64,000 nucleotides of DNA from Mustelus asterias (lineage: Eukaryota). Position numbers and translations under genes: made by a program. Position 1 is the stretch's first letter, and each line of letters starts with the position of its first letter. Location of the stretch: positions 1 through 64,000 of the forward strand of contig NW_027590874.1 of assembly GCF_964213995.1 (NCBI RefSeq), given 5' to 3'. The notes under the pieces were generated by a model. That model was given only the letters and a program-made list of their open reading frames with translations, was not told where the DNA came from and searched no databases. Shown one piece after another: positions 3,065 to 24,673 of this stretch.

Positions 3065-3103
3065 GGATAGTGTTCACCCGGATCCGCTCTGTGTCTCACT
3101 GTG
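3065..3103 (-). other. 23-RSS of V1
   Basis: CACAGTG (3103-3097), 23-bp spacer, divergent nonamer ACACTATCC (6/9 match to ACAAAAACC). Confidence 0.75.
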
Positions 3104-3528
3104 TCTGCTTCACGCACAGATACATTCCGGAGTCCTGGACCGAGGTGTCATCAATACAGATAGTTTTTGAACTCTTTACTCGGTCAAAGGACAGTGTGTA
3201 ACGTCCTTCGGTCGCACTTCCATCGTAAATGGAGGCGATCAGTGTCGGAGCCCATGTCAGTGTTTGTCTGAACCAGAGAACGGTAACGTCTGTAGCAACG
3301 GAGAGCCGACAATTCAGTTCAAACCGTTCCCTTTCCCGAGACACCATCTGCTCAGGGTGGGAGCTCTGAAACTCACACTGAACGGCTGTGAACAGAAGAA
3401 AATCACTCACAAACCGCATGATGTGAAGAGAGTGTTGAAATAATGAATAATAGAAACATAAACCCACACAATATCAACAGCATCAGAGTCCCAACTGGAA
3501 AGCGGTTTTTGCGGGTGTTCTTCTCCAT
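3104..3528 (-). CDS. TCR alpha/delta-like V segment V1 (leader exon 3528-3468, intron 3467-3386, V exon 3385-3104)
   Basis: Leader MEKNTRKNRFPVGTLMLLIL with phase-1 donor T|gtgggt and acceptor ttcttctgttcacag. V domain ...ELNC...WFRQ...DSGMYLCVKQT has both canonical Cys and the Trp; RSS follows directly. Confidence 0.85.
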
Positions 3529-3686
3529 GTTGATGAAGATGCACAGGAGGATCAGTCCGGGTCTCATTTCTAGACTGGGACTTGCTGCCGAGGCCTCGAC
3601 TCTGAGTGGTGGGGAGGGGAAGGAGAGGCGGGAGCTTTACACTCTGATGAGCCACCGTGTCACCACTATTATGGGATGTCGGTCTC

Positions 3687-3718
3687 TGACGTCACTTGCG
3701 GTGCCACTGAGTGATTGG
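3687..3718 (-). promoter_or_regulatory. V1 promoter: CRE/TCR-V decamer plus CCAAT box
   Basis: TGACGTCA at 3687-3694 (minus-strand AGTGACGTCA) and ATTGG at 3714-3718, about 160-190 bp upstream of the V1 ATG. Confidence 0.6.
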
Positions 3719-4580
3719 CTGTTTCTCGAACCAGAGACCACTTGAACCGTCACTGCCCCCGACCCCCTCTGCTTCCGGTGTGTAACAACAGAGTAAATTG
3801 TTTCATAACTGCGGTGCTCTGGTGTCTTTCTAAATGAAAAGAGCCGTTCATAATCTTAGAATCGTAGACAGTTGTAGCACTAACAGAGACCATTCGGCCC
3901 ATTGCTCACGTACTGTCCCTGTTGATGGGTTACCCACTTATTCTTTATCTGCAGCTTGCATTCGATGTATCTTATATTCTTAAAATTTCCGTTTGCTGGT
4001 CAAATATTTATCCACTTGTCTCCGCAACTTACTTATAGATTCTGTCCCCATTACAGTTTGGCACGAACCATCTAGCAGCCGACTGCACAGAACACAAAAG
4101 TCTCCTCCCTCCGTTTAATAAAGATCACCAGAAATGCCGCTCTCCAGTCACGCACTGAGAGGCCAGCCGGGTTATCTCTGTTCCTTTTCAATCTTTTCCA
4201 ACCTGTCTTGATTGGGGACAAGTCTGCCAACCACTTCTGGACAGAATTGCAGCTCCATTGAAAATGTCCCCAATTGCTCAAGTCTCCGCTGAGCATTGTG
4301 CTCTCTCTCTCTCATCCCCACTTCATCTTTCCCAGTCTGTCTTACACATTGTGTCTGAGATTAACGCTACACGGATCCAAGTGTTTGAACTGTGTCCTCA
4401 ACAATGATGTGTATAAGGCTTACACATGTCCCCTTGTGTTCTGAAATCTGCGTCCTTGTTAATAGTGAGGGAGTTAGTGTTGGTAATGCCATTGTTAATA
4501 GTGAGGGAGTTAGTGTTGGTAATGCCATTGAATGTCAAGGGGCAATGGTTAAATCCTCTCATTTGAAGATGGTTACTGCA

Positions 4581-4897
4581 TGGGGCGACACGGTGGCGCA
4601 GTGGTTCGCACTGCTGCCTCACAGCGCCAGGGACCCGGGTTCAATTCCGGTCTCGGGTCGCAGTCTGTGTGGAGTTTGCACGTTCTCCCCTGTCTGTGTG
4701 GGTTTCCTTTGGCTGCTCCGGTTCCCTCTCATAGTATAAAAGTGTGCGGGTTAGGGTGATTGGCCGTGCTAAATTGCCCGTACGTATCAGGCGGTTTAGC
4801 ACGATAAATATGTGGGGAGATGGAAGTAGGGCCTTTGTGGGCTTGTTGTCGGTGCCGACTCGATGGGCCAAATGGCCTCCATCTGCGCTGCAGGATT
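4581..4897 (+). mobile_element. HE1/V-SINE-type tRNA-derived SINE inserted in an older LINE fragment
   Basis: GGGGCGACACGGTGGCGCAGTGGTT head, GGTTCAATTCC B-box, V-SINE core TGTGTGGAGTTTGCACGTTCTCCC. Absent from the paralogous flank of V6. Confidence 0.9.
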
Positions 4898-5255
4898 CGA
4901 TGAACGCATGTGGCGTGAATGTTGCTTGTCAGGCCAAGCCTGAATATTTTCCAGATTTTGCTGTATTTGGACACAGACCAATTATCTGATTTGAAACAAT
5001 AGATTTTCAGCATAAAATTAACAACAATGCGGAAGATTTCCTCAACATAAAGCCCACACTCACTGAGTGACTGTTTCCTTCATCGGATAAGTTATGCTCT
5101 GACTGTCAATAAATCTGAGCAAAGCCGCTGGCAGATATTGGGGAATTACAAAGCCCCGGGCGACCCCGCTCGCATGCTCCATTTCCTGCTCTCTGACATA
5201 TCTTGCCTCAGTCTGCTGTTTGTTTGATCGTTGCAGCAAATGTACACAGGCGTGA

Positions 5256-5294
5256 GGTTTTTGTACGGTGACTCCCGTCTTTCCTCTCAGTGTG
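5256..5294 (-). other. 23-RSS of V2
   Basis: CACACTG + 23 bp + perfect nonamer ACAAAAACC. Confidence 0.95.
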
Positions 5295-5711
5295 GGCTCT
5301 ATCGCACAGTAATACAGAGCGGTATCCGCGCTCCCACTGTTTTCAATAATCAACTGGCCCCATTTGCCCGCAGTGGAAAGTTCCAATTCGAATCGCTCCT
5401 TTCTCTCTTTGCCATCCGAGAATCCGCTTATTATCCACTTCAGACCCTGACCGGGTTTTTGCCTGTACCAATCCATTCTGTAAAAGCTGGAAATGTCATA
5501 ACTGCAGTTTATCTGCACCGAATCCCCGCTCTGGACTGTTCTCGCTGTGGGAGTTTGTGAAACTTGGTCCGAGCGACACCGATCTGTAAAAACATTCAGA
5601 CAATGAGGCACTGGAACAAAATGAATATCAGTAAACAGTCTCTATAGGTTACATAGTAAATTTCCTGCGCTTACAAATTGGTAGAACCATAATGACAAGG
5701 CACAGATACAT
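5295..5711 (-). CDS. TCR alpha/delta-like V segment V2 (leader exon 5711-5675, intron 5674-5584, V exon 5583-5295)
   Basis: Leader MYLCLVIMVLPI|gtaag; acceptor tttttacag. Open V exon DQVSQTP...INCSY...WYRQKPG...DTALYYCAIEP. Confidence 0.95.
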
Positions 5712-5882
5712 TTGCACCGTGTGAGACAGTAACAATGTCAATAGGAAAACGGAGCACAGCTCACAGCAGAAGAGCGCGAAGTGAATCAGCAACTTCAGTA
5801 TTCCCCGAATGTAAGATGCACCAGATAACGTTTCAGACACTCGGGTTCTCTGCAATCTGATGGGCTGGAATCAGACTATGCT

Positions 5883-5904
5883 CTTCCGGTGTAAGGATGT
5901 GGTT
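5883..5904 (+). promoter_or_regulatory. ETS site plus ETS:RUNX composite upstream of V2
   Basis: CTTCCGG followed by AAGGATGTGGTT; conserved upstream of the paralogue V6. Confidence 0.6.
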
Positions 5905-6371
5905 TTTTGATCCGCTGCTGCTTCTCTTTCCGATCATGTGTGAACAAATCAATTTTCTATAAACCAGGGCCCTACTTTACTACAGTTACTTTAATTGATA
6001 AAAGTGTTCACTGCTTAATTGTTCAACAATGAAGTCGTTGATTTCAATTTGAGGTAATTATTCATGTGAATTCTACCCAAGTGCAGTTCAAATGATCGTT
6101 TCAAATACAAGAAGCTCCTCCCGCTGCTCAGGCCTGGCTCCGTTATCCTCGGAAACTCTGCCTCGGGATTTCAATTGAAGCATCAACCATTTAGTTGATG
6201 GCCTGTACCGTTCTGGTTATGTTTTATTCTAGCTCAACATCCTCACCCTGACAAGAGGAATATCCTGATTTTATTTAATATCCAAACATTTATTTAATAT
6301 TCTGAATTGAACTTATCTGAAATACACAACATTGAATTGCAAACACGACTGACCAACAAAAGAAATCGAGT

Positions 6372-6720
6372 TAAAAACAAAATACTGCGGAGGCTGCAAT
6401 CTGAAACAAAAACAGAAAATCTCAGAAGGTCGGAGAGCATCTGTGGGAAGAGAACAGAGCAACATTTTCCAGTCTAGATGATCCTTCCTCAGAACGTACA
6501 TCCTCCTCTCAGTCCCTGAAACTGTTTTTTTTCCGCGTGAAGTCATTGTCCAATCCAAATTTGAAGAAGGAGTTTCTGTGGAATCCGTGCACAGTTTGTC
6601 TTCGTCAACAACATTTATCTGACGAAGGGTCATCTAGTAGACTCGAAACGTTGGCTCTACTTTCTCCCCACAAATGCTGTCAGACCGGCTGAGGTTTTCC
6701 AGCAGTTTCTGCGTTTGTGT
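6372..6720. mobile_element. Inverted pair of Penelope-like element termini with a hammerhead-like motif
   Basis: About 6372-6493 and 6618-6720 are diverged reverse complements. The plus copy has CTGACGA-A-GGGTC..GACTC-GAAA-CGTTG. Confidence 0.6.
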
Positions 6721-8177
6721 GTGAAAAGAAATCGAATCATTGGGTAACCCAGATCCCATGGTGTTTATCTGACCACAGGCAGCTTCTAAACAAAATCAAA
6801 TATTTTTACATGGAAGATATTTAAGAAAGATCGACCAATCACACTTGATCCCTCTTTATTCTGGATGTGAAACATTCTGCCCCCTAAACCTCGTTCATCA
6901 ACACAAAATCCAAGTAGATCGGCACTGAGTCTCGATTTCCTCATCAGCCTGAGCGGTTTTTTCTCTTTGTCTATTATGATGAAAGATTTGAAAAGATGGT
7001 ACTGTGCAGTGCGCGCCATTTCCTCCAGTTCAGTTGCAGCATCACTTGTGTCTGTCTTTATGCGCACACAATACTATTAAACATGTTTCATACGGTGATT
7101 AACTATCCTAGTCTGCATCTGTAAACCCATTCAATTCTGTTGTACACTGAACGAATTGCGAATATGTGCACGGTGTCAAATTAGGAACATTTAATTCCTC
7201 ATTATGTCTTAAAAGGCAGCATTTCCGAATTTGCTGAAAGCATTTGAGGCCGAGGTCACGGCAAATATAATGTGGCTTAACATCGAGTTTCTGATAATGT
7301 TCAGGAACAAACTTAAATCCTGCAAACATCGCTTACCCTCACTGTGAAAGGTTTATACTTCCAATTGGTTGCAAACCAGTGACTTTTCGCGTATAAGGCG
7401 AGCGTGATGGCCAATACACTGCAGAAATGATTATCCACTATAAAACCTCAAGAGACTGTCTTGAAATGTTACAACTGTGCCGTCATTCAGTCACACTTTG
7501 GGTGCTTCCTTCGAAGAATTCGGCTGCTGTCACGAGGAATAAATGCTGTAGACAACCTGGTCTCAGTGACCAGGAGAGAAAACAATTCTGCACAGAGGGG
7601 CCTGAGAGCTGAACCCAGGCAGAGTGGAGGGAGGGAGAAAACTGAGAGTGGAGAAAAGAATTGGTGGAGAGGGTGAGATGGGTTTGGATTTCAGCCCAGG
7701 GACGGGGTAGAGTGTGTGAGATGGGGATTTACAGATTTGGGGCAAACGAGAGGAAAAAATGTTCCAAAAAAAAACTAGAATTATCTGTTCAGAATTTCTA
7801 TCCTGGACCGACCGTGATTAATTTTGTAAACTCTTTTTCCAGGTATTAACAATGGAAAGATTTGTAGATGCAAAACTCAAAACAAACATTTTGGTTTGAG
7901 TCACTCGATCATTCGTCAATCTGTGAATGTGGAAGGAGAAATGTTTATCTCTTGAAGATTTTAAACATCAGTGCAACTGGAAAAACACCGAGACACACAC
8001 ACACACACTCGAGTGAGAGTGTTCCAGTGAACTGACTGTGGAAAGAGCTTTAACCAGTGACACAACCTGAGAAAACATCACACCATTCACAGCGGGGAGA
8101 AACTGTACACGTGTTATCTGCAAGGACGAGGTTTCAACTGATCATCTAACCTGGAGAGACACAAGGACACTGGCACC

Positions 8178-8978
8178 ATGGAGAAACCTTGGAAATTTGG
8201 GGACTGTGGTAAAAGATTCAAGTCTTTATTCCGACTGGAAATCCATCAACGCAGTCACACCGGGGAGAAGCCATTCGTCTGTTCTGTGTGTGGGAAGGGA
8301 TTTACCAAGACAACATACCTGATGTTACACCAGAGAATTCACACTGAGGAGAGGCCCTTCAGCTGCACTCACTGTGGGAAGAGGTTCAACAGCACATCCA
8401 GCCTCGCGACACACCAGCGGATTCACACTGGGGAGAAGCCGTTCACCTGCTCTGTGTGCGGTGAGAGATTCACTCGGTCATCCGGCCTTTGGACACATCA
8501 GCGAATTCACACTGAGGAGAAACCGTTCAGCTGCACTTCTCGTGGAAAGAGTTTCGGGCAGTCATCCACCCTGACTGCTCACCAACGCACTCACACCGGG
8601 GAGAGACCGTTCACCTGCTCCGTGTGTGGGAAGAAATTCTCCCAGTCATTCGATCTGGTGAGACACCAGCGACTTCACACCGGGGACAGACCATTCACCT
8701 GCTCGGTGTGTGGGAAGGGATTCGCTCTGTTATTCACCCTCCAGTCCCACCACCGCACTCACACTCAGGAGAATCCATTCAGCTGCAGTACCTGTGGAAA
8801 GAGTTTCAAGCAGTCATCCAACCTTCTGACTCACCGACGCACTCACTCTGGGGAGAGGCCTTTCACCTGCTCCTTGTGTGGAAAGGCATTCACAAGGTCC
8901 TCCAGCCTGCTGAGACACCAGCAAATTCATCATAGACTGCAAGGATTGGATTCTGCTTTTAACCACAGCCAGGATTGA
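8178..8978 (+). CDS. C2H2 (Kruppel-type) zinc-finger protein, 9 fingers of which 7 are intact
   Basis: Repeated C-x2-C-x12-H-x3-H with TGEKP/TGERP linkers. Fingers 1 (C>F) and 5 (C>R) are degenerate. Probable acceptor tttttccag near 7842; decayed fingers with stops lie upstream of the ATG. Confidence 0.9.
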   Translation: MEKPWKFGDCGKRFKSLFRLEIHQRSHTGEKPFVCSVCGKGFTKTTYLMLHQRIHTEERPFSCTHCGKRFNSTSSLATHQRIHTGEKPFTCSVCGERFTRSSGLWTHQRIHTEEKPFSCTSRGKSFGQSSTLTAHQRTHTGERPFTCSVCGKKFSQSFDLVRHQRLHTGDRPFTCSVCGKGFALLFTLQSHHRTHTQENPFSCSTCGKSFKQSSNLLTHRRTHSGERPFTCSLCGKAFTRSSSLLRHQQIHHRLQGLDSAFNHSQD

Positions 8979-9150
8979 TAGTCTGACAATATTGGTTCGA
9001 TTTTGCTGATATTAACATCCCTATAAGTAGCTGGAGTTTAATATTCTGGAGATGTCTCTGACTTTCGGAGCTGCAGTGTCCCTTTTTAAAAACACCTTGT
9101 GATCTTTCCCCTAAATTCAAGAATCCTTAACAAGAACCTGTTCAACATAA

Positions 9151-9496
9151 AATCATAGAAGTCATAGAAACCCTACAGTGCAGAAGGAGGCCATTCGGCC
9201 CATCGAGTCTGCACTGACCACAATCCCACCCAGGCCCTACCTCCACATATTTTACCCACTAATCCCTCTAACCTACGCATCCCAGAACTCTAAGAAGCAA
9301 TTTTTTTAACCTGGCCAATTAACCTAACCCGCACATCTTTGGACTGTGGGAGGAAACCGGAGCACCCGGAGGAAACCCACGCAGACACGAGGAGAATGTG
9401 CAAACTCCACACTGACAGTGACCCGAACCGGGAATCGAACCCAGGACCCTGGAGCTGTGAAGCAGCAGTGCTAACCACCGTGCTACCGTGCCGCCC
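9151..9496 (-). mobile_element. HE1/V-SINE-type SINE, full length
   Basis: Reverse complement of the GGGCGGCACGGTAGCA head, with V-SINE core and TTCTATGA tail. Confidence 0.9.
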
Positions 9497-10120
9497 ACTT
9501 TGCTTCAATCCTAAATTAATCTTCGATGCAAATCAGTGTGAGAGAGGTTCCACTGATTAACATCTCCAATTAGAAAGTCCTGATTAATCCTTGCTGACAA
9601 TTCTGGCTGACGTCTTCACAGTGACACGTCCATTATGAAATTAAATATGAATTAACATAAACAAAATAGTGAAATATTATACAGGCACAGTTAAATCTCA
9701 CATAAAATCCTTAACAATCAATATTGAAGTTGATGAAACTTGGAGGTCTCTGAGTTCACTCATTTCTGACACAGCAGCAGCAGTTTCACGATCTTGCGAT
9801 TAAAGTAATACAATATCACCATCTGCTGGCGACGTGTACTTACGGCAGGCGCTGGCATCTGTGAGTCTCGGGGAAGTTCAGTCACTGGATGGTTGGAACT
9901 GGCATCCGGTTGATGAAGTGCCAATATTGAATAACATTGTTCATTCCCTGTTGCAAACTTTCATTCCTAACATTGGAATGAAAGTTTGCAACAGGTTCTT
10001 GGGTGGCGCGTTCGCCCATTTATCACCAGGCACCGTGTAAGAATTTTGTTCCCCATTCCCCATGGGAGATATTGTCTGGAGTTGCAGTTCGGGATTATTG
10101 TGTGCATTAGTATTTAAAAT

Positions 10121-10276
10121 AAATATTTATTGAAGATATATAGCACTGGAGATACGTTTCAGGATCTACCGGACAGATTTTCTTGCTGTTTTGCGCAAAG
10201 GAAAGAAAACTGTTCTTTTTAATATTGCCGGGATGCTTCTCCCTGACACCGCCGTGTATCCCTGTGCCACGGAGCC
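10121..10276 (+). pseudogene. Decayed V remnant V3 (3' half; V7 family)
   Basis: KYLLKIYSTGDTFQDLPDRFS, then a +1 frameshift, then AVLRKGKKTVLFNIAGMLLPDTAVYPCATE. Aligns with V7 RYLLKKY...PDFPDRFSAELDKDKRTVPLTITG...DSAVSHCALS. Confidence 0.85.
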
Positions 10277-10316
10277 CACACTGCTGCAGAGATAGAGCGG
10301 ATCCCGGACAACAACC
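10277..10316 (+). other. RSS of pseudo-V3 (24-bp spacer)
   Basis: CACACTG + 24 bp + ACAACAACC. Confidence 0.7.
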
Positions 10317-10342
10317 CCACACATGGGAGTTCCAGTTAGGTA

Positions 10343-10356
10343 CCACCAGAGGGCGC
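10343..10356 (+). promoter_or_regulatory. CTCF motif just 3' of the V3 RSS
   Basis: CCACCAGAGGGCGC matches the CTCF core consensus. Confidence 0.7.
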
Positions 10357-11172
10357 ACTTACGCTGCTAAACAGAACCAATAATTCACTCTCCATGTGAG
10401 TCACAGGGACCTTCCCAAGATATCAGAGAAAAAACACAACCTCAACAAGAGGTGAGCAACATTTGAGGAGTTATATTAGTTTATTTTAACTTGCATTTGT
10501 GCTATCGCCGATCTTCTTAAATCTATTCCATTTTGTTAGTTTAGTTGTTGCCCTTGGATGCAGTTTCCCTGTCTCTAATATTGAGCAACTCGATCCCCAT
10601 CTCCCCTGAGAGGTTTCTGAAGTCTATCACCGCGGCCTGGTCACTGGGTTTATTTGATCCGAGAGATGTGCTGCTTCCGAGAAAGTGTAGACACAATGAA
10701 GAAATTTCACAATGAAGTGACTGTGATCTTTTAAATAGACATTGAGCACAGAATTCCCCCAATGACCAGTGAACTTCAGGATGTTTCCGTAATGATGTTT
10801 TGTTACTATGAGCAACCCAGAATTTGCAGCTGCTAATTAACAGAGCAGGGTTTCATCCCCGCAACCCCATCCGGAAAAGTGCACCCGTTCCCCTATCGAG
10901 GTGCTGAAATCAGCTCGGCTCGAGGGATTTCCTTTCGATATCAGCCAGCTCACCACTGAGAGATCTCACAGACTCATAGAGACACAATGATTGAAGTGGC
11001 AGGATACCGGAAACACTTGGGCTGATCCCAGGTTAATGAGGATTCTTGCGTAACTGACGGTCACATCATGGCTGCATCTGCCCGCGCTTCTGAGCAACCC
11101 GCAGCAGACAGGACTTTCAACCTATAGTTAAAGGCAGTTTTTTCAGCAGTCAGACTGCTTTCCATCACTGTG

Positions 11173-11732
11173 AGTTTCAGCGAGAGCGCAGTAATACAAG
11201 GCAGAGTCAGTCAGCTGCAGACCCCAGATGGTCAAACTGGTGAATTTACTCCATGCCTGAAGTTCTCCAGAGAAGCGGCTTTCAGCAAAATCTGCTACAT
11301 CTTCACCAAACATCGAGTTCTTCCCCACTGTAACACAGGGTGTTGCCGGTACCAGTGTCAATTGCAGTTGCTCATTCTAGTGTCATAGGTACAGTTTAAA
11401 GTCACCGTTTCTCCTTCTGTCTGTTATCCTGAAGAAGGGGCTCAGAGCCTCGAAAGCTTGTGTGGCTTTTGCTACCAAATAAACCTGTTGGACTTTAACC
11501 TGGTGTTGTTAAACTTCTTACTGTGTTATTCTGAGGACAGCGACTGAGTGACAGAATCTCCATGACTCAGATCTGAAAAACATGTTCAAACGGAAACAGA
11601 TCAGACCGACTGAATCCGTAAAATTCAGTTCAAAAGCAAGTTTGTCAAATTAAAGTGAATATGAAATCCGTTTGGTCCATAAGTACCTGTCAGGAAGGTT
11701 CCCCGCACAATCCAGATGCTGAGTAGCAGCAT
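11173..11732 (-). pseudogene. TCR alpha/delta-like V pseudogene V4 (leader exon 11732-11687, V exon 11572-11173)
   Basis: Leader MLLLSIWIVRGTFLT|gtactt; GDSVTQ...VTLNCTY...*HWYRQHP...DSALYYCALAE. Has in-frame stops, a frameshift after WYRQ and a 96-bp insertion. CACAGTG heptamer at 11172-11166 with a shortened (~21 bp) spacer. Confidence 0.92.
11428..11523 (+). mobile_element. 96-bp Penelope-like terminal fragment inserted in V4, 6-bp TSD TGTTAT
   Basis: TGTTAT at 11422-11427 and 11524-11529 flanks the insert. The insert holds CTGAAGA-A-GGGGCT/AGCCTC-GAAA-GCTTG and AATAAA. Confidence 0.75.
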
Positions 11733-12245
11733 CGTTGTTGTCTGCTCTGTAAAAGTGGAGTTGGATATTTGCAGACACCCTTTCCAAACTTCACCCTGTA
11801 TATGTTGCTGCCGTGTCTCGGGATGCTCTCACTGCATTTCCCTGTGTCCGCGGGGGTGCTGTGGGGTTGGCAGCTGGTGAACTGGCTACCAGTGAATGGA
11901 TTCACCCCGAGCTGGGTTCACTCAGTGTTCTGATAGGACGAATGGTTTCCTAGTTAGACACGTGGGAAGAGATTTGTAACCGGAAACATGGGGTCACTGA
12001 TGGGGTTTATTTATTCCGGCTTCAATTCTTCATCTCCGATTCCAGTAGAATCGATGTCAGTGAATGTGGGCGGATAAAACCCGAGTCTCAGCTTCTTTCA
12101 TCAGTTCAACAGAGAGACGCTTCAGTTGGACACGAAGCAGGCGTTTGACTCCTTGTAAATTCTTCCGAATATTAAACCCAGGTCCTGGTTCTGATCTGAA
12201 CTCCCCGGACAATTACTTCAGCAGAAATTTCATATGATCTGAAAA

Positions 12246-12578
12246 ATGCTCCGAATTTACAGACTCTGTTTGCTGTGTTTCGCTCTGACCTGCACGGGGG
12301 TGACTGGAGCAGATGAGGTGATGCAGCTCCCTCGGCGGAAGGTTGTTAGTGAAGGGGGAACCGTATCCATGAACTGCACCACGATCACTACATTTAGCAA
12401 CCTACATTGGTACAGACAGTCCCCGAATCAGCCACCCCAGCATCTGGTGATGGCCACAAGAGAACCCGATCTACACGAGAGGATCACAGCCTCAATCGGT
12501 GGAGGCTACAAATTCAGCGCCCTGACTGTGAGAGACGCCGGAGTTACAGACACTGCCACCTATCTCTGTGCTGTGAGC
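12246..12578 (+). CDS. TCR alpha-like V segment V5 with leader and V in a single exon
   Basis: Continuous ORF: hydrophobic signal MLRIYRLCLLCFALTCTGVTG, then ADEVMQ...MNCT...WYRQSP...DTATYLCAVS. Confidence 0.92.
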
Positions 12579-12617
12579 CACAGTGTGACAAACACAGGGA
12601 AGTCCCATACAAAAACC
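12579..12617 (+). other. Consensus 23-RSS of V5
   Basis: CACAGTG + 23 bp + ACAAAAACC, both perfect. Confidence 0.98.
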
Positions 12618-12957
12618 TGCACAGACTGCGAGAGCCACTCTGCTGTGTCTGCAGGAGCGGCAGAGAGAGTGATGTGATTGTTAAAAAAAATCCGTAAAGA
12701 AAGGAAATGAGCGCAACACAAAATAAAACATACAATCTAGTTATTGAAATCCCGTTAAAATGAAGATAGTTGAAAACAGATGGAGAAGAGGAACGAGGGA
12801 ACATGTAAACTCGACTGAGTGAGAGGAAAACAGAACATAGGAAAGTTCAGTTATCATAGGAGAAGTGGACAGAAAATGAATAAACTGTTGAAATAGAAAT
12901 GGAAGAGATTGGAAAGTGTGATAGACAGTTTAAAAATCAGGTAATATCATGAATAAA

Positions 12958-13275
12958 GTGGGGTGGCCTAGTGGTATCATCGTGAGATTATTAACCCAGA
13001 AACTCAGTTAATATTCTGGGGACCCCGGTCCGAATTCCTGCACGGCAGGTGGTGAAACTTGAATTCAATAACAATTTAGAATCTACTGAAACCATGAAAC
13101 CATTGTAGATTGTCGGAAACACCCATCTGGTTCACTGATGTACTTTAGGGAAGGAAATCTGCCGCCCTTACCTTGTCTGGCCGACATGTGACTCCAGAGC
13201 CACCGCAATGTGGTTGACTCTCAACTGCCCTCCAACGAGAGCCCGTGACGCCTAAGTCTCACAAATGACTAAAAT
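12958..13275 (+). mobile_element. Second-family tRNA-derived SINE
   Basis: GGTGGCCTAGTGGT A-box-like head, B-box-like GGTCCGAATTCC, and a body I recognise as a common shark repeat. Confidence 0.6.
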
Positions 13276-14265: not shown

Positions 14266-14674
14266 GGCTGTATCGCACAGTAATACAGAGCGGCATCCGC
14301 GCTCTCCGTGTTTCCATAACCAACTGGCCCCGTTTGCCCGCAGTGGAAAGTTCCAATTCGAACCGGTCTTTTCTCTCTTTGCCACTCGATAATCTTCTTA
14401 TTATCCACTCCAGTCTCTGACCGGGTTTTTGTCTGTACCAATACATTCCATAAATGCTGGACATCTCATAACTGCAGTTTATCAGCACCGAATCCCCGCT
14501 CTGGACTGTTCTCGCTGTGGGAGTTTGTGAAACTTGGTCCGAGCGACACCGATCTATAAAAAAACATTCATACAGTGAGACACTGGAGCAAAATTATTAT
14601 AAATAAATAGCTCCACAAATAAATATCCTGCGCTTACAAGTTAGCACCACCAGAATGATAAGGAACAGTTTCAT
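14266..14674 (-). pseudogene. V6, paralogue of V2 with a single 1-nt deletion in FR3 (leader exon 14674-14638, V exon 14553-14266)
   Basis: Leader MKLFLIILVVLT|gtaag. Frame 1 runs DQVSQTP...WYRQKPG...GQLVME; frame 2 continues NTESADAALYYCAIQP. AAA at 14311-14313 where V2 has AAAA. Confidence 0.85.
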
Positions 14675-14831
14675 TTGCACCGTGTGATATAATAACAATG
14701 TCAGTAAGAATACGGAGCACAGCTCACAGCAGAAGAGCATGGATTGAATCAACGTCTTCAACATATGCACCAGATAAAGTTTCAGACACTTGGGTTTTCT
14801 GCAATCTGATTGGCTGGAATCAGACTCCGTG

Positions 14832-14853
14832 CTTCCGGTATCAGGATGTGGTT
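14832..14853 (+). promoter_or_regulatory. ETS site plus ETS:RUNX composite upstream of V6
   Basis: CTTCCGG followed by CAGGATGTGGTT (14842-14853); CCAAT box (ATTGG) at 14809-14813. Confidence 0.65.
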
Positions 14854-15220
14854 GTTGATCCGAAGCTGCTTCTCTTCCGGGTCACGTGTAAACAAATCAA
14901 TTGTCCAAAAAACAGGACACTGCTTTCCTGCAGTAACTGTCATTTATAAAAGTGGTTAAAGTTTAACTTCACCAATAAAGGCATGATTTTAAAATGAGGT
15001 TTGCCCTCATTTTAAAGTTATGTATGATAAATGCGTGATCAATAATATGTTGGAAATATTGTTTCTCGATTTACTTTTGCAAATATAATTGATTCCCCTT
15101 GTGTTTCAAGGGGACTTAAAGACCAGCCAAGCTGGTCTTCATATGATTTGGGTTCAATTACAAATCCACAATCCAGCTCACAGATCTGATTCAGTGAGAG
15201 GAGGTGAGAGTGCCTTTGCC

Positions 15221-15259
15221 GGTTTTTGTACGGGTTGACTGTGCCTCTGTAACAGTGTG
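15221..15259 (-). other. 23-RSS of V7
   Basis: CACACTG + 23 bp + ACAAAAACC. Confidence 0.95.
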
Positions 15260-15695
15260 GGGCTCAGCGCACAGTGAGACACGGCAGAGTCAGAGACATG
15301 GACCCCGGTGATTGTTAAAGGAACTGTTCTCTTGTCTTTGTCCAATTCAGCCGAAAACCGGTCAGGGAAATCTGGAGACTTTTCCCCCTGTCCCTTGCCG
15401 TATTTCTTCAGTAAATATCTCGGAGCTTCCCCGGGATGTTGAATGTACCAGAAGAGAGTCTCGCCAGTGTATTTTGCTGTGTAGTTGCAGTTCAATATTA
15501 CCGTCTGCCCTTCCTGGACCGTGAATTCGGGCCGGTCCTGGGAAACTGAATCTTGGCCACTGGTTCCTGTAACAACATATAGAATGTGTGAGAAATCTGA
15601 GTGAATATAACCCATGAAACACACACTGAGGATTTGAGCTCAGACTCACCGGGCAGCATGACAATTATTATCAGTAAAGCACACAGGGAACACAT
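15260..15695 (-). CDS. TCR alpha/delta-like V segment V7 (leader exon 15695-15650, intron 15649-15567, V exon 15566-15260)
   Basis: Leader MCSLCALLIIIVMLP|gtgagt; acceptor gttacag. QDSVSQ...ILNCNY...LFWYIQHPGEAPRYLL...DSAVSHCALSP, with YYC replaced by SHC. Confidence 0.92.
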
Positions 15696-18366
15696 GGTTC
15701 CTGATTGGACAGTAAACAGCCACACTGTTTAAACGATGTTGCTGCTTCTAGTTTATATCACAGAGTCAACTCAGATCAGAGGCAACTGCAATTATTGGGA
15801 AACTGGGGGGCGTTTCTCAGTGCTGCGATTGGTTAGTCTGCCTGAGATGATGTTAGCTTTGGATCAATCACTGTTAGTTGACGACGAAGTGCGGCTGGCT
15901 TTCTCCAATCAAATTGTAGCCCAGGCTGAGTGCGTCTTTCTCACCCTCTTGCTCTCTGTCACATTCTCAGTCATTCTGTCTCTTTCTCGGTTTAACTCTT
16001 TCCTTCCAACCGGAGATCAGCTCTTTATATGACACCAGAGCCTGTCTTCATATTGCAATAGACCATGTTTCCCTTGCCATCAGGATAGTATTAATTACGA
16101 TATCTATCGGTGCGTCTGTCAGAATTCAATCATTTTAGTCAGAGTAAATTAACGATAATAGTGAAAGAGTATATTTAATCTTATTAACGTTTCTAAGTAC
16201 AAACCCAGAGGCCTCAGATGTCTGCGGTTTTATTTGATCGGATTAACTCGCTCATGTTAAATGTTATTTATTTTTATACCAGTTTGTGACGACTTCTCAA
16301 GAACCTTAATCTTATTACCACGCGCTTGACCTGTTTACGCGGAACTTTTCGTTCTGACAGGTAGATTTCCTCGGGTTGCGATTGGAAATAGAACTGTACA
16401 CGGATTGAACAACTGAGGATTTAGATGGAGATCCCGTGAGGGAAGCAAACGCTGCAACACAGGAATTTTCAGGCTAAGTAATAAAGATAAAGGGATGGAA
16501 AGACAATGGGAAACAATCTCATGTCTTTCGTCTGACTCCAGAGAATTATAATACAATTTACTCAGCATTTCATCAATTTCAACATGGGGAACACGACAAG
16601 CCCCCTTTGTTCTACAGAACTTCCAATTTCATGCCATTCGTTGAATACTTCGTTGTCAAATTATTCCTTCTAAATTTAATCACCACTCTTTTCAGGGTTA
16701 AATTCCATCTGCAACTTACCGGCCCATTTGAACATTCCATCCATATCTTCTTGTCGTCAAAGAGACTCAACCTCAGTGTTAACCACTCGCCAAATGAAAG
16801 TGGTCATCTTTCAATCTGTATTCTCTGACAACGCTGGCAGTTTTAGACTTCGCAGTCAACTGATGGGACGAGTGGAATGTGCAGGAAACGTTTTGATTGC
16901 AATTTATTGAAGGACTGAGTGTGGATTTTTCTCTCTCCCTTTGGCTCTCCACAATCTGGCCGATGAAAAACAGAATGAGAGAGAGGCGGAAAAGATAGGA
17001 GTATGAGGACGATGTTGATGTGGGGCGGTTTATTAAGAGAGGCAAAGGTTCTGTAGTTCTCTACAGAGTTGGAGTGGGGAGAGGTGACTGATAGAAGTTG
17101 GAGCTCAATTGCTGATGCTGAATGTACATACAGCACTAGTCCAGGCGTGAGGAGGTTTAGTGGTTGTGCAGGGAGAACCTGGCCAACCATCTCCAAAAGG
17201 AAACCCACCGATTCCTGTTAATCATCTGGAAAATCTGAACTGGACCGCCTCGATTGCAATTATATTTCCCTTAAAATAACGAGACGCAGGAGTATATACA
17301 TTATTTCTAATATGGGTTCTCCATCTACAGTGCTGCAACCGTCAAAGCCTCGGGTCACTTGTTAGAGTGTGGTATTAAAAGGAGCTACTAGCTCCATTTG
17401 TCGCTCTTGTGTCCGGCGCCACACGATCAGCTGAGGTTTGCAAACTGAAAGGGTACTTATACTTATACATTATATCGGGTCTATTTCAGATTAAATAATA
17501 TTTTATTGCCAGTTTTACAAAAACTCTGGACTGATACTTTTTTTTTCAATCTACCAATCAAAAGTAATCGAAGGCTTTGAATATTACCAGGATAAGTTAG
17601 TTGAAAGTCCAAGACATTTCGAGAATGCAACAGTTCAAGATCGAGGGAATAGCTTCCACACAGACTGCAAGGAACATGGCATAAGGAAGAAGATGAAAGT
17701 TTGAATGAATGATACAGGACACATCCTCACTTATCTCCAAAGATACCAGAAATTGTACATGTGTTTCCGAAAGTAGTTTGGACACGTGATTTACCCCTCT
17801 CTCGGAGTAATCTCCATAAAATATTATCTGTGAACAACTTGAGGGTAAATGTCTGTCTTATTGATTTTAAACTGTTTCTTGCTGAATAGCAGCAGTGCGA
17901 TGTTTCCAATCATCCTGCTTCTGGCACCTCTCTTGCATGAACAGAAGAATCCCGAATCTGCACTAATTTCATGATTACAATTTCATTCAAATTCTGAAAT
18001 TGTAGACTGACATTATGTGATAGAAATATTCGTAACTCCTTTAATTCACTTCAGTTCAGTACATAGTGTTAATCAATATTCATCTTTTTTCACCAAACTG
18101 CTGGACAAATCTGTTTGCCTTCAGTCAGTTCCTGTACTATGAGTGCAAAAGACTTTCAATAAACATATATTTTGCAATAAAAGCCGAAGTCATCATGTTT
18201 GTTCATTGATCGTGATTAATGTCATTCCGCACATCATTTAATTGTTTCACCAGGGGACTTTCCTCACTCGGTAAATATAGAATGTTTTCATTGTGCGCAT
18301 CAGTGTTAAAAGTGAGAGTGGTCTCCAGTACAACCAGTGATCATTGAATCTCAGAGTCACTAAACC

Positions 18367-20035
18367 ATGTTCTGGATTATTCCACTTGAGCTTCGTGTTG
18401 CTTGGGTACTTCACGATATCCAAAGGATTTACTACCCACTCCTCGCTGCAGTTGGTGTAGCTGGTGAGTTAAATTTCACTCTGTTGATTGCACTTGTCCA
18501 TGAGACCCAATCAATAATTTTATAATGTGCAAACTTCATGTTGCATATGTGCTAATGCAATTGGAAAATTTCTCTATCTTCCCAGCAGACATTTTCCCTA
18601 CTCTTGCCTGGTGGTTGCTCTCTATTTCCCACTCTCCCCCCTCCCCACTACCAACCCCCTCTCCTCACTCCCACCACACCTTCACCGGCCACTTCCACTA
18701 TTCCTGCCTTAATATCTACAGGGTCCTGCCTCAGTAAAATAAAATATATAATTTCCAGTTTTGTGATTTACAGCCAATTCCAAATCAACTTATGCAATAT
18801 CTTCAGATGCACAGTCTGCAGCACAGCCACAGCAGAGTGACCCAGACCAGGAACATTCCGTCCAAACCCATTGGTACCATTGTGTCTCCCAAATACAAAT
18901 AAAGAGAAGGCAGGGAATTGGAGATCTGCTCTGTTGGTAAATTTAGTTTCTTGATAGCTCAGTGCGATGCTTTCCTACTGTGAACCCAGTCTCAGCAGGA
19001 CAGGTGAATCCATGTTTTTCTGAGGCTGGACTCTGTAAAACAAAATCCTGCAGCTGTTCCCCAGAAACCTGCCAGATTACTGCTCCTGTTCTCAGTCTGA
19101 AATATGAGTTAATTGTCTCTCTCTTCCCTGCAGTGAACTTATTGACGATTCTTATCCTGTCTCGAGGAAGGTGTGGACTTTCCAAATGTGTCTCACGTTA
19201 CCTAATTTCCATGTCAGCGGCGGATCTACTCGTCGTCATCATCGACCTCGTATTGAGGCAAATTCCCATCAGTTTCAGAGATCAATTTGTCTTCATGTAT
19301 CATGTTAAAGTGTGCAATATCCATGCCGTCCTGCTTTACGCAGTCACTGACTGTTCTGTCTGGTTCACTGTCACTTTTACCTTTGATCGATTCGTGGCCA
19401 TTACTTGTCAGAAGCTGAAAATAAAATACTGCACTGAGGAAACGGCAACTGTGGTTCTAGGAACAGTGAGTGTGGTATTCACTGTAAAAAACACTTTCTG
19501 GTACTTTATGTGTGAGAATAGCTATTGGCTTTCCAATACTCCCTATTTCTGTTCTGTAGATTTTGATGTCGCCTCCTCACCAGCATGGACAGCAGCTGAA
19601 AGTCTCCACTATATTTTAACCCCGACTATTCCTTTTGTGTTGGTTGTGCTGTTCAACGTTTTAACCGTTAAATACATTGTGGTGTTGAGTAAAGTCCGCA
19701 GGAGACTTCGGACCCACAAGAATGGGGAAAGTCCAAGTGACCCAGAGATAGAGAAAAGAAGAAAATCTATCATCATACTGTTTGCAATATCGGGAAATTT
19801 TCTCCTGTTATGGTCAGTGTTCCTCTTCTATTGTTTATATGACCGACTGTACATGTTTAAATTATTTCTGTCGCGTTTACCACATTTTCTTCAGGAATTA
19901 GGATTTATGCTCCAACTCCTGAGTTGCTGCACCAACACATGCATCTATGCAGTGACACAGACACAGTTCAGAGAGGATCTGAAAAATGTGGTGATGTTTC
20001 CAGTAACTGGAATTTTGAAATTCATTAAACAGTAA
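18367..20035 (+). CDS. Class A GPCR, GPR139/GPR142-like, two exons (18367-18463 and 19134-20035; 332 aa)
   Basis: Exon 1 MFWIIPLELRVAWVLHDIQRIYYPLLAAVGVA|gtgagt splices in phase 1 to ctcttccctgcag|(V)NLLTILILSR. Seven hydrophobic segments; motifs AADLL, SVWFTVTFTFDRFVA, NTCIY...FR. The ORF-track start at 18962 lies in the intron. Confidence 0.9.
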
Positions 20036-21314
20036 TAAGCTATTCTATCACCACAACGTATTTATCTGATGTTTTGCTACAGAAACTCATCGCAATCAGA
20101 AACACACTGATGTCGATTTTGCTTTATTCATCCCGATAAACCCATGAACAACAATTGTAGAAATTCAAAAGGAAACGACTTCAGATCCAAAGCTGTCTGG
20201 ATTTGAATCAGTTAAAATCAGCGATTTAACATGTGCTGGACACATTGAGTTCCAGAATAAAATATTCGCCTGTCAAATTCGGGAGGAAGTTACTGACCTT
20301 AGCATTTTACATCAACACTCATCCCACAACGAAAATATCTGCCAGCACCACCCCTACCAGCCTCACGGTACCGGCCCCACCACCCGATCTCTCACATCAC
20401 ACGTCCCCCTGCGCCGCCCCCCCCCCCCCCACCACCACCCCCAACCCCGTTCGGGAAGTATTCACTATTGTATCTAGTGATGGTGAATTAAAGAAGTGGA
20501 TGTGAGATTAATGAAGGCTGGTATTGGGGAAGAGGAATTGAAGGGAGGGGTGGTGGGCGGTTGCGAGTCATTTGTCGTGTGCTGAGACGACAATGTCCAT
20601 AAAATATTAGCCCGAAACATCCATTCAGTTGCAATCAGAGTCATGTTGCAGCTGCGACGACATTTAATAAAATCCAGTGCCAGCATTCGACAGCGCACTT
20701 GCTTCAATTCACTGAGAACTCAAATAACTGCACAGCAAATCAGTCCAATGCGCCCCTGAATTTTGCAGTGTGTGTTATAGGTCAGAGTGACTTAAGGCCT
20801 CAAATGTGCCGGAGTGTAATCTTCAAATAAGCAAACACATTTTAATATAGATGGAACAGAATACAGGCAGGGTTGTGAAGGGTCTATGGAACACATTAGA
20901 ACTCAATAATGGAAAACTCAGAGAAAATTAGATTTGTGTCCAATTATAATGAAATAATACTTAATAAAATCTGGATTTAAAAAGTAGCCAGCTCTTCCAA
21001 AAAATTAAAGTGAATGTAAAGAAATAATTAGCAGTTAAGAGACACATTTATTCGCGAGTGGATGAATATAAATCAAGTATTAAATTCCCTATCCTTGGGC
21101 CAGATTTCCTTGTGGATATTATTGAGAGGGATGCGGATGCCGTTGCTTTCTGGGGAAGCAAGGTATTAAATTTATTTTGAAAATCACCTCAAAACTGTTT
21201 ATTTATCTTGAGTCTACAAATGATACAATGCTACCATCTGCTGACAACCCACAACTGCTGCAGACGCTGGTCTTTGTGAGTCTCAGAAAAGTTCAGTAAC
21301 TCGAGACTGCATTT

Positions 21315-21630: not shown

Positions 21631-21634
21631 GACT

Positions 21635-22212: not shown

Positions 22213-22231
22213 AGAGAAGAAAGGAAAATAA

Positions 22232-22830
22232 GTTGCTGCCTCTAGTCTTATATCACAGAGTGAACTCAGATCAGAGGCAGCTTCAATTATTAGGAAACTG
22301 GGAGGCGTTTCTCAGTGCTGCGATTGGCTCATCTCCCTGAGCTGACGTCAGCTGCGAATCATAAAATCCCTACAGTGCAGAAGGAGGCCATTCGCCCCAT
22401 CGAGTCTGTACCGGTCACAATCCCACCCAGGCCCCACTCCCGCAACTCCGTGTATTTACCCTGCGTATCCCCTGAGACTCGGGTCAATTTAGCATGGCCA
22501 ATCAACCCAACCTGCACATCTTTGGACTGTGGGAGGAATCAGCAGCAGCCGAAGGGGACCCACGTAGACACGGGGAGAACATGCAAACTTCATACAGAAA
22601 GTGATCCGAAGCCGGAATTGAACCCGGGTCCCTGACACTGTGAGACAGCAGCGCTGACCCTTGTGGCATCATGCCGCCCCGTAACCAGTGAAGCAATCAC
22701 TGTTAGTTAATGATTTAATATAGCTGGCACTTTCCAATCACATTCCTTCCCTGGCCGTAAACGTATTTCTAAGTTCCTTGCTCTCTCTCTGCTCTCTCCC
22801 ACATAACCAGTTATTCTGTCTCATTAACTG
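22232..22830 (-). promoter_or_regulatory. Orphan copy of the V7 promoter (split by a SINE at ~22358-22680)
   Basis: 22232-22355 and ~22690-22800 align with 15738-15960. Contains a TATA-like element, ATTGG and a perfect CRE TGACGTCA (22343-22350). No leader or V exon follows. Confidence 0.75.
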
Positions 22831-23220
22831 GTGAACTCGCTTTCCTCAGAACTCAGTCCATCAATCTTTCTGAAGGCAGATCCTTTTTTTCTAATTCAGG
22901 TGAAAAGTGAAACTAATTTAATCATTTATGGGCGACACGGTGGCGCAGTGGTTAGCATTGCTGCCTCACAGCCCCAGGGACGCGGGTTCGATTCCAGCCT
23001 CGGGTCACTGTCTCTGTGGAGTTTGCACTTTCTCCCCGTGTCTGCGTGGGTTTCCTCAGGTGCTCCAGTTTCCTTCCACAGTCCTAAACTGTGCAGGTTT
23101 GCTGGATTGGCCACGCAAGATTACCCTAAGTGTCAGGGGATAGCAGGTTAAATATGTGGGTTACGGGGATAGGGCCTGGGTGGGATTGTTGTCGGGACAG
23201 GCTCGTTGATCCTAATGGCC
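22358..23220. mobile_element. Two HE1/V-SINE-type SINEs (~22358-22680 minus; ~22929-23220 plus)
   Basis: Same head and core motifs as the other copies. Confidence 0.88.
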
Positions 23221-23307
23221 ATGACTCAACATAATCAATAGTAGTGCTGTAAGTGTACCGGGGATAAGTCGTCACTCAACCCTGCACCAGGAAATATTTC
23301 ACGGACT

Positions 23308-23780
23308 CATAACATAGAAACTAGAAGCAGGAGCCTTCTCCGCCAATCATCGTAATCATGGCTGATCATGGAATTCAATATCCTGATCCCCCTTCCCCCT
23401 CGCCCATATCCCTCGACCCCTTTAGCCCCAAGAGCTATATCAAATTTCTTCTTGAAATCAGACAACGTTTTGGCCTCAACTACATTCGGTGGTACTGAAT
23501 TCCATGCATTCAACACTCTCTGGATGAAGGAATTTCCCTTCACCTCAGTTTATCCCTTACCTTCAAAAGATGACGCCTAGTTCTGGATTCCAGCATTGGG
23601 AACAGTCTCCTGAATCCACCCTGTCTAACCCTGTTAGAATTTTATAAGTTTCTATGAGATCCCCTCACTCTTCGAAACCCCAGTGAATATAATCCTAACG
23701 GATTTAATCTCTCGTCATATGACAGACCTGCCATCCCAGGAATCAGCATGGTAAATCTTCACTGTACCCCTCTATTCCCC
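23308..23780 (-). mobile_element. CR1-clade LINE 3' fragment
   Basis: FIQRVLNAWNSVP..VVEA.TL..FKKK.D motif on the minus strand. Confidence 0.85.
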
Positions 23781-24163
23781 AAATAGAAAAGCTCTGATTT
23801 CAATCAGTTATTATTTCTGCTCCACGGACTTGAAAATGGGACAATTCTGAGGCTGCATTTGACAATAGATCACTTTTAAAATGTGTTGCCGGGCAGATAG
23901 GCACCGAATCCAGAATCTTTCTAAGTACAGATTAAGGAAGTTATTCACCCGGGATAATCTGCAGATTTTGTGCGGATGGGGTCGGAGAATGGTTGGATTT
24001 GATCCGGGAATAATAGGACGGCAAATGTGACATTTCACAACACTGACAATGGCTGAGCTCAGTGGGGGAATATTATTCAGCTGGGGCTGTATTGTGGCCT
24101 TCATTTTCTGCGCATTTTCGTTGAGATCCGACTCTTTTTCTCTGACCCTGAAACGTCTGCGTC

Positions 24164-24202
24164 ACTTTTTGTCTGAGGCCCGCGGGAGCCTCACTCACTG
24201 TG
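24164..24202 (-). other. 23-RSS of V8
   Basis: CACAGTG + 23 bp + ACAAAAAGT. Confidence 0.92.
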
Positions 24203-24673
24203 GGTCTCAGTGCACAGTAATACACGGCGCTGTCTCTCATCTTCAAATCTTTCATGGACAAGTGAAAAGTGCTTTGTGTCTGGTTGAGATTCCCGCTGAA
24301 GTGTCCAAAGCCGGGAGCCGTATCGGTAAACCCATAACTATTGGCTCTGAGCAGATACTGAGGAGCTCGGTGTGGATACTGGCGATACCAGAACAGGTCA
24401 TGTTGTGTAGCTGAACTCGGCACAGAGTAACTGCAGGGTATTGCTGAATCTTCACCCTCTGCTGCTTCAACTCCTGGTTCTGACTGGGAAACTGAGTCTC
24501 CATTACTCATCTCTGAAAATAAACAGCGGACACACAGTGGGTTAGGAGTCAGAGGAAGACAATAGTCACACAGCGCTGGGAAAGGGAAATTGCACAAGGT
24601 TTGCAATATACTTTACAATCTGTGACCAGAATCACTGACCTGGGATCAGTGCAATAACTAGAATCAGGAACAT
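24203..24673 (-). CDS. TCR alpha/delta-like V segment V8 (leader exon 24673-24640, intron 24639-24513, V exon 24512-24203)
   Basis: Leader MFLILVIALIP|gtcagt; acceptor tttattttcag. GDSVSQ...IPCSY...LFWYRQYPHRAPQYLL...DSAVYYCALRP. Confidence 0.95.

What the first reader, a model, noticed from the sequence alone, without database searches (positions are those of the whole stretch)
3065..24673. Compact, mixed-orientation cluster of highly divergent TCR alpha/delta-type V segments with no D/J/C in view
Seen: eight V segments or remnants in ~21.6 kb from about six distinct families, all with 23-type RSS. Six point left and two (V3, V5) point right; the next 38 kb has none. Known: 23-RSS with WYRQ/YxCA ends and no downstream D-J-C cassette fits TRAV/TRDV rather than the shark cluster-type IgH organisation. 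Inference: this is the distal end of a shark TCR alpha/delta locus whose inverted members must join by inversion, or a detached orphon.
Basis: partly seen in the sequence, partly recalled or inferred. Interest (0 to 1): 0.7.

Follow-up and report, generated by a model that had tools for sequence, protein, structure and literature searches.

The report
Shark V island, twin TCR-alpha loci
These eight T-cell-receptor variable gene pieces are one recently copied island in a pool of at least 570 such pieces in a shark genome assembly that holds two diverged alpha-chain loci and 19 separate likely delta constant exons, so the intact pieces likely join a distant alpha or delta partner rather than marking a locus end or lying orphaned.

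Summary
In detail: eight TCR alpha/delta-type V segments, six on minus and two on plus; four are intact, one is an open frame with a damaged motif, three are broken. The window starts at base 1 of an unplaced 152.6-kb contig that has no D, J or C. It is a patchwork of blocks found at 97-99% identity on other V-dense contigs, where the array runs on and the strand flips about every second gene. Mixed orientation is therefore the rule, the V-free right flank is a recurring spacer, and 'distal end' is unsupported. Framework purifying selection (pN/pS 0.46) argues against an orphon. Mixed-orientation V genes scattered through the shark antigen-receptor complex are already tabulated (PMC12227049). 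Less usual: at least 572 V loci on 102 contigs (about 1,000 estimated; haplotype copies not excluded), two intact-looking J-alpha/C-alpha cassettes (127 and 29 J; 74% identical C) with no C-delta found in front, dead D-delta relics before one, and 19 likely C-delta exons elsewhere. The scan had reported those 19 exons before on other contigs; I re-counted them. Linkage and expression remain untested.

The parts
3065..3528 (-). V1: leader exon 3468-3528, intron, V exon 3104-3385, heptamer 3097-3103, 23 spacer, weak nonamer (3 mismatches). Most divergent family; open frame
   Evidence: 8 copies at 99-100% aa on 7 contigs; same weak nonamer in 5 of 5 copies seen
5256..5711 (-). V2: intact V with split leader and 23-RSS (1 mismatch)
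   Evidence: 9 copies at 98% or more on 8 contigs
8142..8978 (+). C2H2 zinc-finger ORF, 278 aa stop to stop; the sequence upstream has stops in all three frames; passenger in the duplicated block
10143..10316 (+). V3: 3' remnant of a V exon with an RSS of 24 spacer
   Evidence: same remnant at C71:7.339 Mb and 16.484 Mb
11134..11732 (-). V4: pseudogene with in-frame stop and frameshift (shared with older copies), an 88-bp insertion absent from the C232 and C71 copies compared, and a degenerate nonamer
12246..12617 (+). V5: intact V with perfect 23-RSS; leader and V in one exon (no intron)
   Evidence: 12 copies at 94% or more
14227..14674 (-). V6: V2-family gene with a 1-bp deletion near the 3' end; its C232 copy is intact
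15221..15695 (-). V7: open frame and good 23-RSS, but the tyrosine two places before the second cysteine is serine; 66% identical to a bamboo shark V
18947..20035 (+). Rhodopsin-family GPCR ORF (7tm_1); passenger, 99% aa copy on C1126
24164..24673 (-). V8: intact V with split leader and 23-RSS (2 nonamer mismatches)
   Evidence: 24 copies at 93% or more on 17 contigs, none with a stop
2646..20079 (.). Segmental-duplication block, about 99% identical to C232:322,429-341,899; its left 8.4-8.8 kb also on C596 and C1085 at 99%
25620..64000 (.). V-free spacer (internally repeated unit, 52-bp minisatellite, microsatellites) that recurs beside V islands on C546, C596, C1085, C1126 and C232; beyond 78 kb the contig is 72% tandem repeat

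Best explanation
The window is one recently duplicated island of a very large shark TCR alpha/delta V pool, and its intact segments (V2, V5, V8, perhaps V1) likely rearrange through their 23-RSS to 12-RSS partners on other contigs, most likely the 127-member J-alpha array of C546. Shown: the V anatomy; the 97-99% block copies in shuffled order and orientation; the absence of D, J and C on this contig; two J-alpha/C-alpha cassettes and 19 likely C-delta exons in the assembly; purifying selection on frameworks. Inferred: the contig belongs physically to the antigen-receptor complex near C546. RAG joins V to J-alpha directly, or to a D-delta of a nearby delta unit, under the 12/23 rule, by deletion for V facing J and by inversion for V facing away. 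The mixed orientation arose by inverted segmental duplication and is tolerated because both routes give a coding joint when V lies upstream of J.
For: Window 2646-20079 matches C232 at about 99%, and blocks recur at 97-99% on C596, C1085, C741 and C1126. In those contigs V genes go on to the left of V1 and neighbours switch strand in 42 of 81 pairs on five contigs. The V3(+), V4(-), V5(+) trio, with V4's stop and frameshift, also sits at C71:7.34 and 16.48 Mb, so the inversion predates this copy. C546 carries 10 intact V (7 plus, 3 minus), 127 J by motif scan, a C-alpha exon and a TM exon. Eight of its 10 V are 96-99% nt identical to V on C1126, C232 or C1085, and 23.9 of its first 32 kb match the window's spacer at 93% or more. 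Both C exons are 51% identical to the C domain of LOC121270132, which PMC12227049 Table S1 labels TCRa. On the unplaced V-dense contigs 76 of 100 V are intact, against 4 of 22 on C71 below 17 Mb (Fisher p=6e-7). In 62 unique ORFs of 8 families, framework pN/pS is 0.46 (p=6e-13) and CDR pN/pS 1.00 (CDR against framework p=2e-4; CDR limits approximated by me).
Against: C842 is unplaced, so no physical link to any J or C is shown. None of the window's own V genes has a match of 230 nt or more among C546's 10 V: the link runs through shared blocks and the spacer. This copy has defects its C232 twin lacks (V6 deletion, V7 substitution, V4 insertion) and lies beside satellite DNA, which fits decay or base-calling error. 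V8-, V7- and V5-family genes also lie co-oriented 16-24 kb upstream of a likely J-delta on C436, so delta use competes. Some copies may be uncollapsed haplotypes (two C-delta exons score as 100% identical). Deep forks of the V tree are unresolved; V1 and V2 cannot be placed by it. No transcript evidence.
Confidence: 0.62

Rival explanations
1. The intact segments serve mainly a nearby TCR-delta minicluster: V joins D-delta (12/23) and then J-delta, as for the window's families on contig C436.
For: 19 likely C-delta exons on 17 contigs; 15 of those contigs also carry V hits. On C436, V8-family (97% aa), V7-family and V5-like genes face a NAR-type V, a D, a supporting V, a J and the C exon within 34 kb. 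Nurse shark alpha and delta cDNAs share V segments in five of seven delta families (PMC5931798, passage).
Against: No such C exon on C842, C232, C1085, C1126, C596 or C741. The V genes sampled on C71 below 17 Mb, near IgM and delta units, are mostly broken (4 of 22 intact). My scan found no 12/23 D between the supporting V and J on C436.
Confidence: 0.15
2. C842 is a detached or decaying copy (an orphon in the functional sense): a recent duplicate dropped into satellite DNA, out of reach of any J, whose genes look intact only because the copy is young.
For: No D, J or C in 152.6 kb; 72% tandem repeat beyond 78 kb; three private defects against the C232 twin. At 99% identity a copy has had little time to decay, and the selection signal is measured on families, not on this copy.
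Against: The same spacer flanks V islands on C546, which holds the J array. V2, V5 and V8 keep leader, frame and RSS.
Confidence: 0.13
3. The contig is an uncollapsed second haplotype, or an assembly artefact, of the C232 region, and the large V counts are much inflated.
For: About 99% identity over 17 kb with C232; many identical-score hit pairs between C71 and unplaced scaffolds.
Against: V1 has 8 copies at 99-100%, two on one contig; V8 has 24 at 93% or more, more than two haplotypes allow. Block order differs: C232 has 36 kb of extra V array inside the window's layout. Each C-alpha occurs once. Contigs of four public runs carry many variants of V5.
Confidence: 0.1

Closest known systems
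Elasmobranch antigen-receptor complex, AgRC (Flajnik et al. 2025, PMC12227049; read: parts 1-2 of 8 of the text, term passages, all of Table S1)
   Same: TCR alpha/delta V exons lie between IgH clusters and in both orientations over megabases (great white 8.2-17.1 Mb, stingray 21-24 Mb, epaulette 3.0-5.1 Mb). Here C71 carries IgM C exons, V blocks, C-alpha and likely C-delta.
   Different: Table S1 lists automatic gene models, tens of V per species and one TCRa C each; in catshark and stingray TCRd C lies just upstream of TCRa. Here there are at least 572 V loci, two C-alpha cassettes with no C-delta found in front, and 19 likely C-delta exons.
Newt TRA/TRD separation with a duplicated TRA (Pleurodeles waltl, PMC12698447; read: abstract and first half of the discussion)
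   Same: TRD not nested in TRA; two TRA loci.
   Different: In the newt the loci lie on different chromosomes, the duplication is recent, and TRD is single and lacks D. Here C-alpha paralogues are 74% identical, one shares scaffold C71 with three likely C-delta exons, and the delta units are many.
Channel catfish TRAD locus (PMC8656973; read: passages)
   Same: 125 TRAJ (127 here on C546); V genes used although opposite in orientation to C; local segmental duplications.
   Different: 140 V, all in one orientation downstream of TRAC, in 1.3 Mb, with TRD nested before J-alpha.
Nurse shark TCR alpha/delta V repertoire (Ott et al. 2018, PMC5931798; read: passages)
   Same: V segments shared between alpha and delta; near-identical germline V; the authors say their 17 germline V are a small part of the pool.
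   Different: No assembled locus there. The families could not be matched here because those sequences were not on hand.

Membership tests
TRAV/TRDV rearranging V segment | V-set domain with both cysteines and the conserved tryptophan | tested here: met
   6 of 6 tested pass Pfam V-set; C, W, D and C invariant in the alignment; V6 loses the second cysteine by frameshift
TRAV/TRDV rearranging V segment | 3' RSS with 23-bp spacer | tested here: met
   5 clean, 2 with degenerate nonamer, 1 with 24 spacer; far above chance
TRAV/TRDV rearranging V segment | Split leader (leader exon, intron, V exon) | tested here: inconclusive
   Met for V1, V2, V4, V6, V7, V8; V5 and its family are intronless; V3 has no 5' part
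TRAV/TRDV rearranging V segment | Groups with TCR alpha/delta V, not with IgL, IgH or non-rearranging V | tested here: inconclusive
   No window V in the starred IgL (97/97) or IgH (100/99) clades; V5 is sister to a C546 family (98/92); V7 and V8 join other shark V without stars; V1 and V2 unplaced; 60 rows, 101 columns
TRAV/TRDV rearranging V segment | Found joined to J-alpha or D-J-delta in transcripts | not testable with these tools
   No RNA holder listed
Shark IgH/IgL minicluster V | One V followed within kilobases by (D), J and C | tested here: not met
   No D, J or C on the contig
Canonical TRA/TRD locus | D-J-C-delta nested between V and J-alpha | tested here: not met
   No C-delta match on C546 or near C71:18.4 Mb; 0 of 68 candidate ORFs on C546 and 0 of 33 (of 92 listed) on C71 hit C1-set while 3 of 3 controls did. 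Caveat: a 200-N gap on C546 at 129.6 kb
Canonical TRA/TRD locus | Single C-alpha behind a J-alpha array | tested here: not met
   Two C-alpha exons, 74% aa and 84% nt identical, each with J array and TM exon
Elasmobranch AgRC | IgH clusters, TCR alpha/delta and scattered V on one linkage group | tested here: met
   Met for scaffold C71; the window is tied to it by shared blocks only
Elasmobranch AgRC | Synteny with PSMB5 and UrIg2 | tested here: inconclusive
   No proteasome exon on C71 among 28 matches; two on C185, which also has C1-set exons; subunit identity not checked; UrIg2 not searched
Orphon | Lies outside the locus, on another chromosome or out of reach of J | not testable with these tools
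   Contig unplaced

The most novel reading that the evidence does not exclude
This shark has taken the TCR alpha/delta locus apart: two diverged, intact alpha cassettes (two C-alpha isotypes, 127 and 29 J) that have lost their nested delta unit, many free-standing delta miniclusters, and an archipelago of about a thousand V segments in both orientations, spread over tens of megabases among IgM clusters, zinc-finger genes and satellite. V-alpha joining would no longer delete the delta genes as a set, and inversion would be a main route of rearrangement.
Probability: 0.4. Interest if true: 0.72.

Novelty: new variant of a known kind. Interest (0 to 1): 0.45.

Why it matters
The island itself is an ordinary piece of a published arrangement. 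Its context matters for three questions. First, nesting of TRD inside TRA is nearly universal and was thought to enforce the alpha-beta versus gamma-delta choice; the newt paper (PMC12698447, discussion) reports the first full separation, and this would be a second case reached by multiplication of delta units, with the dead D-delta relics as a trace of the loss. Second, two C-alpha paralogues at 74% identity raise the question of isotypes and of allelic exclusion across loci. Third, hundreds of near-identical germline V mean that shark TCR repertoire and hypermutation studies need a complete germline; PMC5931798 handled this by using shared CDR3s.

Tried and rejected
Expression: no RNA holder listed among 4 public runs. 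Laid on V5, their contigs cover coding and non-coding bases alike and show no joint to a J, so they say nothing on expression. One search used the wrong stretch (a simple repeat) and is uninformative. Homologue searches gave few shark rows: 5 teleost proteins and 7 proteins, so nurse shark, catshark and chimaera family names could not be assigned. The profile search was dominated by multi-V gene models and yielded no C-delta. A PDB search with the likely C-delta exon showed only Ig chains in the best 60: its name rests on layout (12/23 D, FGXG J, NAR-type V cassette) and on earlier notes. PDB matches for V2 were dominated by multi-domain antibody constructs. IgL identity was rejected (the IgL V on C8 has a 12-RSS and a separate clade). 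I considered V1's leader defective, then found a usable downstream start and splice donor. Literature: searches found no paper on two TCR-alpha loci, on V numbers of this size, or on intronless V leaders in sharks; the library lacks most subscription journals (Deiss 2019 and Ott 2020, recalled, not read). PMC10322711: passages read; 11 of 19 supplementary files searched without a species hit, and the unsearched ones may hold shark J and V counts. PMC5278385 (passages) had nothing on single-exon leaders. PMC6795676 (passages) states that shark TCR genes are translocons. PMC8559430: abstract only.
Full report
Observation. All eight segments are present at the stated places and orientations. V1, V2, V5 and V8 have leader, open V exon and RSS. 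V7 is open but has serine for the tyrosine of the YxC motif. V6 has a 1-bp deletion. V4 has a stop, a frameshift and an 88-bp insertion. V3 is a 3' remnant. Six of six tested pass Pfam V-set. Five RSS are clean 23-mers, V1 and V4 have degenerate nonamers, and V3 has a 24 spacer. Six RSS with at most two mismatches stand against 0.09 expected. Complete exons are 17-39% identical except V2/V6. A zinc-finger ORF and a GPCR ORF lie between the V genes.

Where the window lies. It is bases 1-64,000 of contig C842 (152,580 bp) in a 3.68-Gb assembly of 5,313 contigs. The remaining 88.6 kb hold no V; the RSS scan of the whole contig gave 7 hits, 6 at the V genes and 1 in a microsatellite. Beyond 78 kb the contig is 72% tandem repeat. 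Nothing lies to the left, so context had to come from copies elsewhere.

The window is a mosaic of recent duplications. Bases 2646-20079 match C232 at about 99%, and parts match C596, C1085, C741 and C1126 at 97-99% in other orders and orientations. V1 has 8 copies at 99-100% on 7 contigs, V2 has 9 at 98% or more, V5 has 12 at 94% or more and V8 has 24 at 93% or more. In C232 and C1085 the array continues left of V1. Neighbouring V switch strand in 15 of 30, 11 of 22, 4 of 10, 6 of 9 and 6 of 10 pairs on five contigs. The V3, V4, V5 trio with V4's stop and frameshift recurs at C71:7.34 Mb, beside an IgM cluster, and at 16.48 Mb. The V-free right flank recurs next to V islands on C546, C596, C1085, C1126 and C232. 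Mixed orientation is thus inherited and general, and the empty flank marks no locus end.

Size of the pool. Four protein searches each scored only 150 candidates (of 1,855, 1,313, 317 and 1,459). Their listed hits merge to 487 distinct places on 102 contigs, 68 of them on C71 between 4.5 and 19.5 Mb. I entered 150, 148, 41 and 150 rows; the 23 left out were split halves, repeats of other lists and two C23 rows. My annotation of 1.35 Mb found 163 V, 78 of them among the search hits, which gives 572 places and a recapture estimate near 1,000. The fetched DNA was chosen around hits, which lowers the estimate; uncollapsed haplotypes would raise the counts.

Partners. A perfect 12-RSS search led to two J arrays: 127 J on C546 and 29 on C71 by motif scan, 77-90% identical in their shared blocks. 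Each is followed by a C exon. A genome search finds exactly two (57 of 57 candidates scored), 74% aa identical and 84% nt, each with an open TM exon. Both are 51% identical to the C domain of a great white shark model that PMC12227049 Table S1 labels TCRa. C546 also has 10 intact V, 7 facing the J array and 3 facing away. Eight are 96-99% identical to V on contigs that share blocks with the window, but the window's own V have no close match there. No C-delta was found in front of either J array. C546 keeps two D relics with a 15-nt 3' spacer against 23 nt in an intact D, and it has a 200-N gap before the J array. A J-like element upstream of that gap has a homologue 7 kb before the first J on gap-free C71 DNA, which supports the join. 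Earlier notes of this scan pointed to 19 C-delta exons. I located one independently through the D relic and counted 19 on 17 contigs (108 of 108 candidates scored). Its name rests on layout, since PDB gave no named delta match. One such unit, on C436, lies directly behind co-oriented genes of the window's families.

Function of the pool. On unplaced V-dense contigs 76 of 100 V are intact, against 4 of 22 on C71 below 17 Mb. Along minimum-spanning-tree edges in 8 families (62 unique ORFs), framework pN/pS is 0.46 and CDR pN/pS 1.00. This fits working receptor genes but is measured on families, not on this copy, which has three private defects. In the tree, IgL and IgH rows form separate starred clades without window V; V5 is sister to a C546 family; V1 and V2 stay unplaced.

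Mechanism. Shown: 23-RSS V genes, 12-RSS J arrays, 12/23 D segments, two C-alpha exons. From established V(D)J rules: a 23-RSS V joins a 12-RSS J-alpha directly or a D-delta, by deletion if it faces J and by inversion if it faces away. Catfish has all 140 V opposite to C (PMC8656973, passages). Inferred: the window belongs to the V pool of the C546 cassette (0.62). Rivals are use by a delta minicluster (0.15), a detached or decaying copy (0.13) and a haplotype copy (0.10). Which strand of the window is the inverted one cannot be told.

Comparison and verdict. TCR alpha/delta V exons in both orientations among IgH clusters over megabases are already listed for great white shark, stingray and epaulette shark, so the finding as written is an ordinary piece of the antigen-receptor complex. 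What departs from print, as far as searches reach, is the scale of the pool and the split architecture. Multiplied delta units were noted earlier in this scan; a look-up for a second alpha cassette found no note holding all the words. The nearest precedent is the newt. Novelty: new variant of a known kind; interest 0.45; the bold reading has probability 0.4 and interest 0.72.

Noticed in passing
window 12246-12578; copies on C1126, C232, C71: The V5 family, and its 64% sister family, encode leader and V in one exon; other families read as intron upstream of the V exon. Single-exon leaders in some avian V-alpha are recalled, not checked.
   Followed up: partly
L046:3560-3700 and L019:750-890 (C546:113.6 and 120.8 kb): Two D-delta-like relics whose 3' RSS spacer is 15 nt against 23 nt in the intact D at C71:12,249,037, upstream of the J-alpha array with no C-delta found.
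   Followed up: yes
L063-L077 (C71:19.2-19.5 Mb): A V-dense block lies 0.8-1.1 Mb downstream of the C71 C-alpha; 16 of 24 intact V are on the minus strand, including 12 tandem V5-like genes. A 200-N scaffold gap at 19.16 Mb leaves the orientation unsure.
   Followed up: partly
L144-L147 (C436:193-227 kb): NAR-type V, a 12/12 D, a supporting V, a J and a likely C-delta directly behind co-oriented genes of the window's families.
   Followed up: partly
window 18947-20035: Intact single-ORF GPCR copied with the V block; a broken relative at about 42-47% lies on C391.
   Followed up: no
window 11436-11523: 88-bp insertion in V4, absent from the C232 and C71 copies; it looks like a retroelement 3' end (recalled, not tested).
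   Followed up: partly
window 29.4-49.2 kb and 54.4-69.4 kb of the contig: Internally repeated spacer with a 52-bp minisatellite and a GC-rich, promoter-like patch near 27.0 and 53.0 kb.
   Followed up: no
L138, L139 (C23:0.509 and 1.119 Mb): V exons with no RSS found, each followed within 170 bp by a C1 exon: likely non-rearranging V-C genes, the weak outside matches of V1.
   Followed up: no
G000:C185:264.8-267.8 kb: Proteasome exons among C1-set exons, probably the PSMB5/IgW part of the complex on a separate scaffold.
   Followed up: no
G000:C8:50.17-51.08 Mb: 19 perfect 12-RSS and about 20 C1 exons in mixed orientation: an IgL cluster array.
   Followed up: partly
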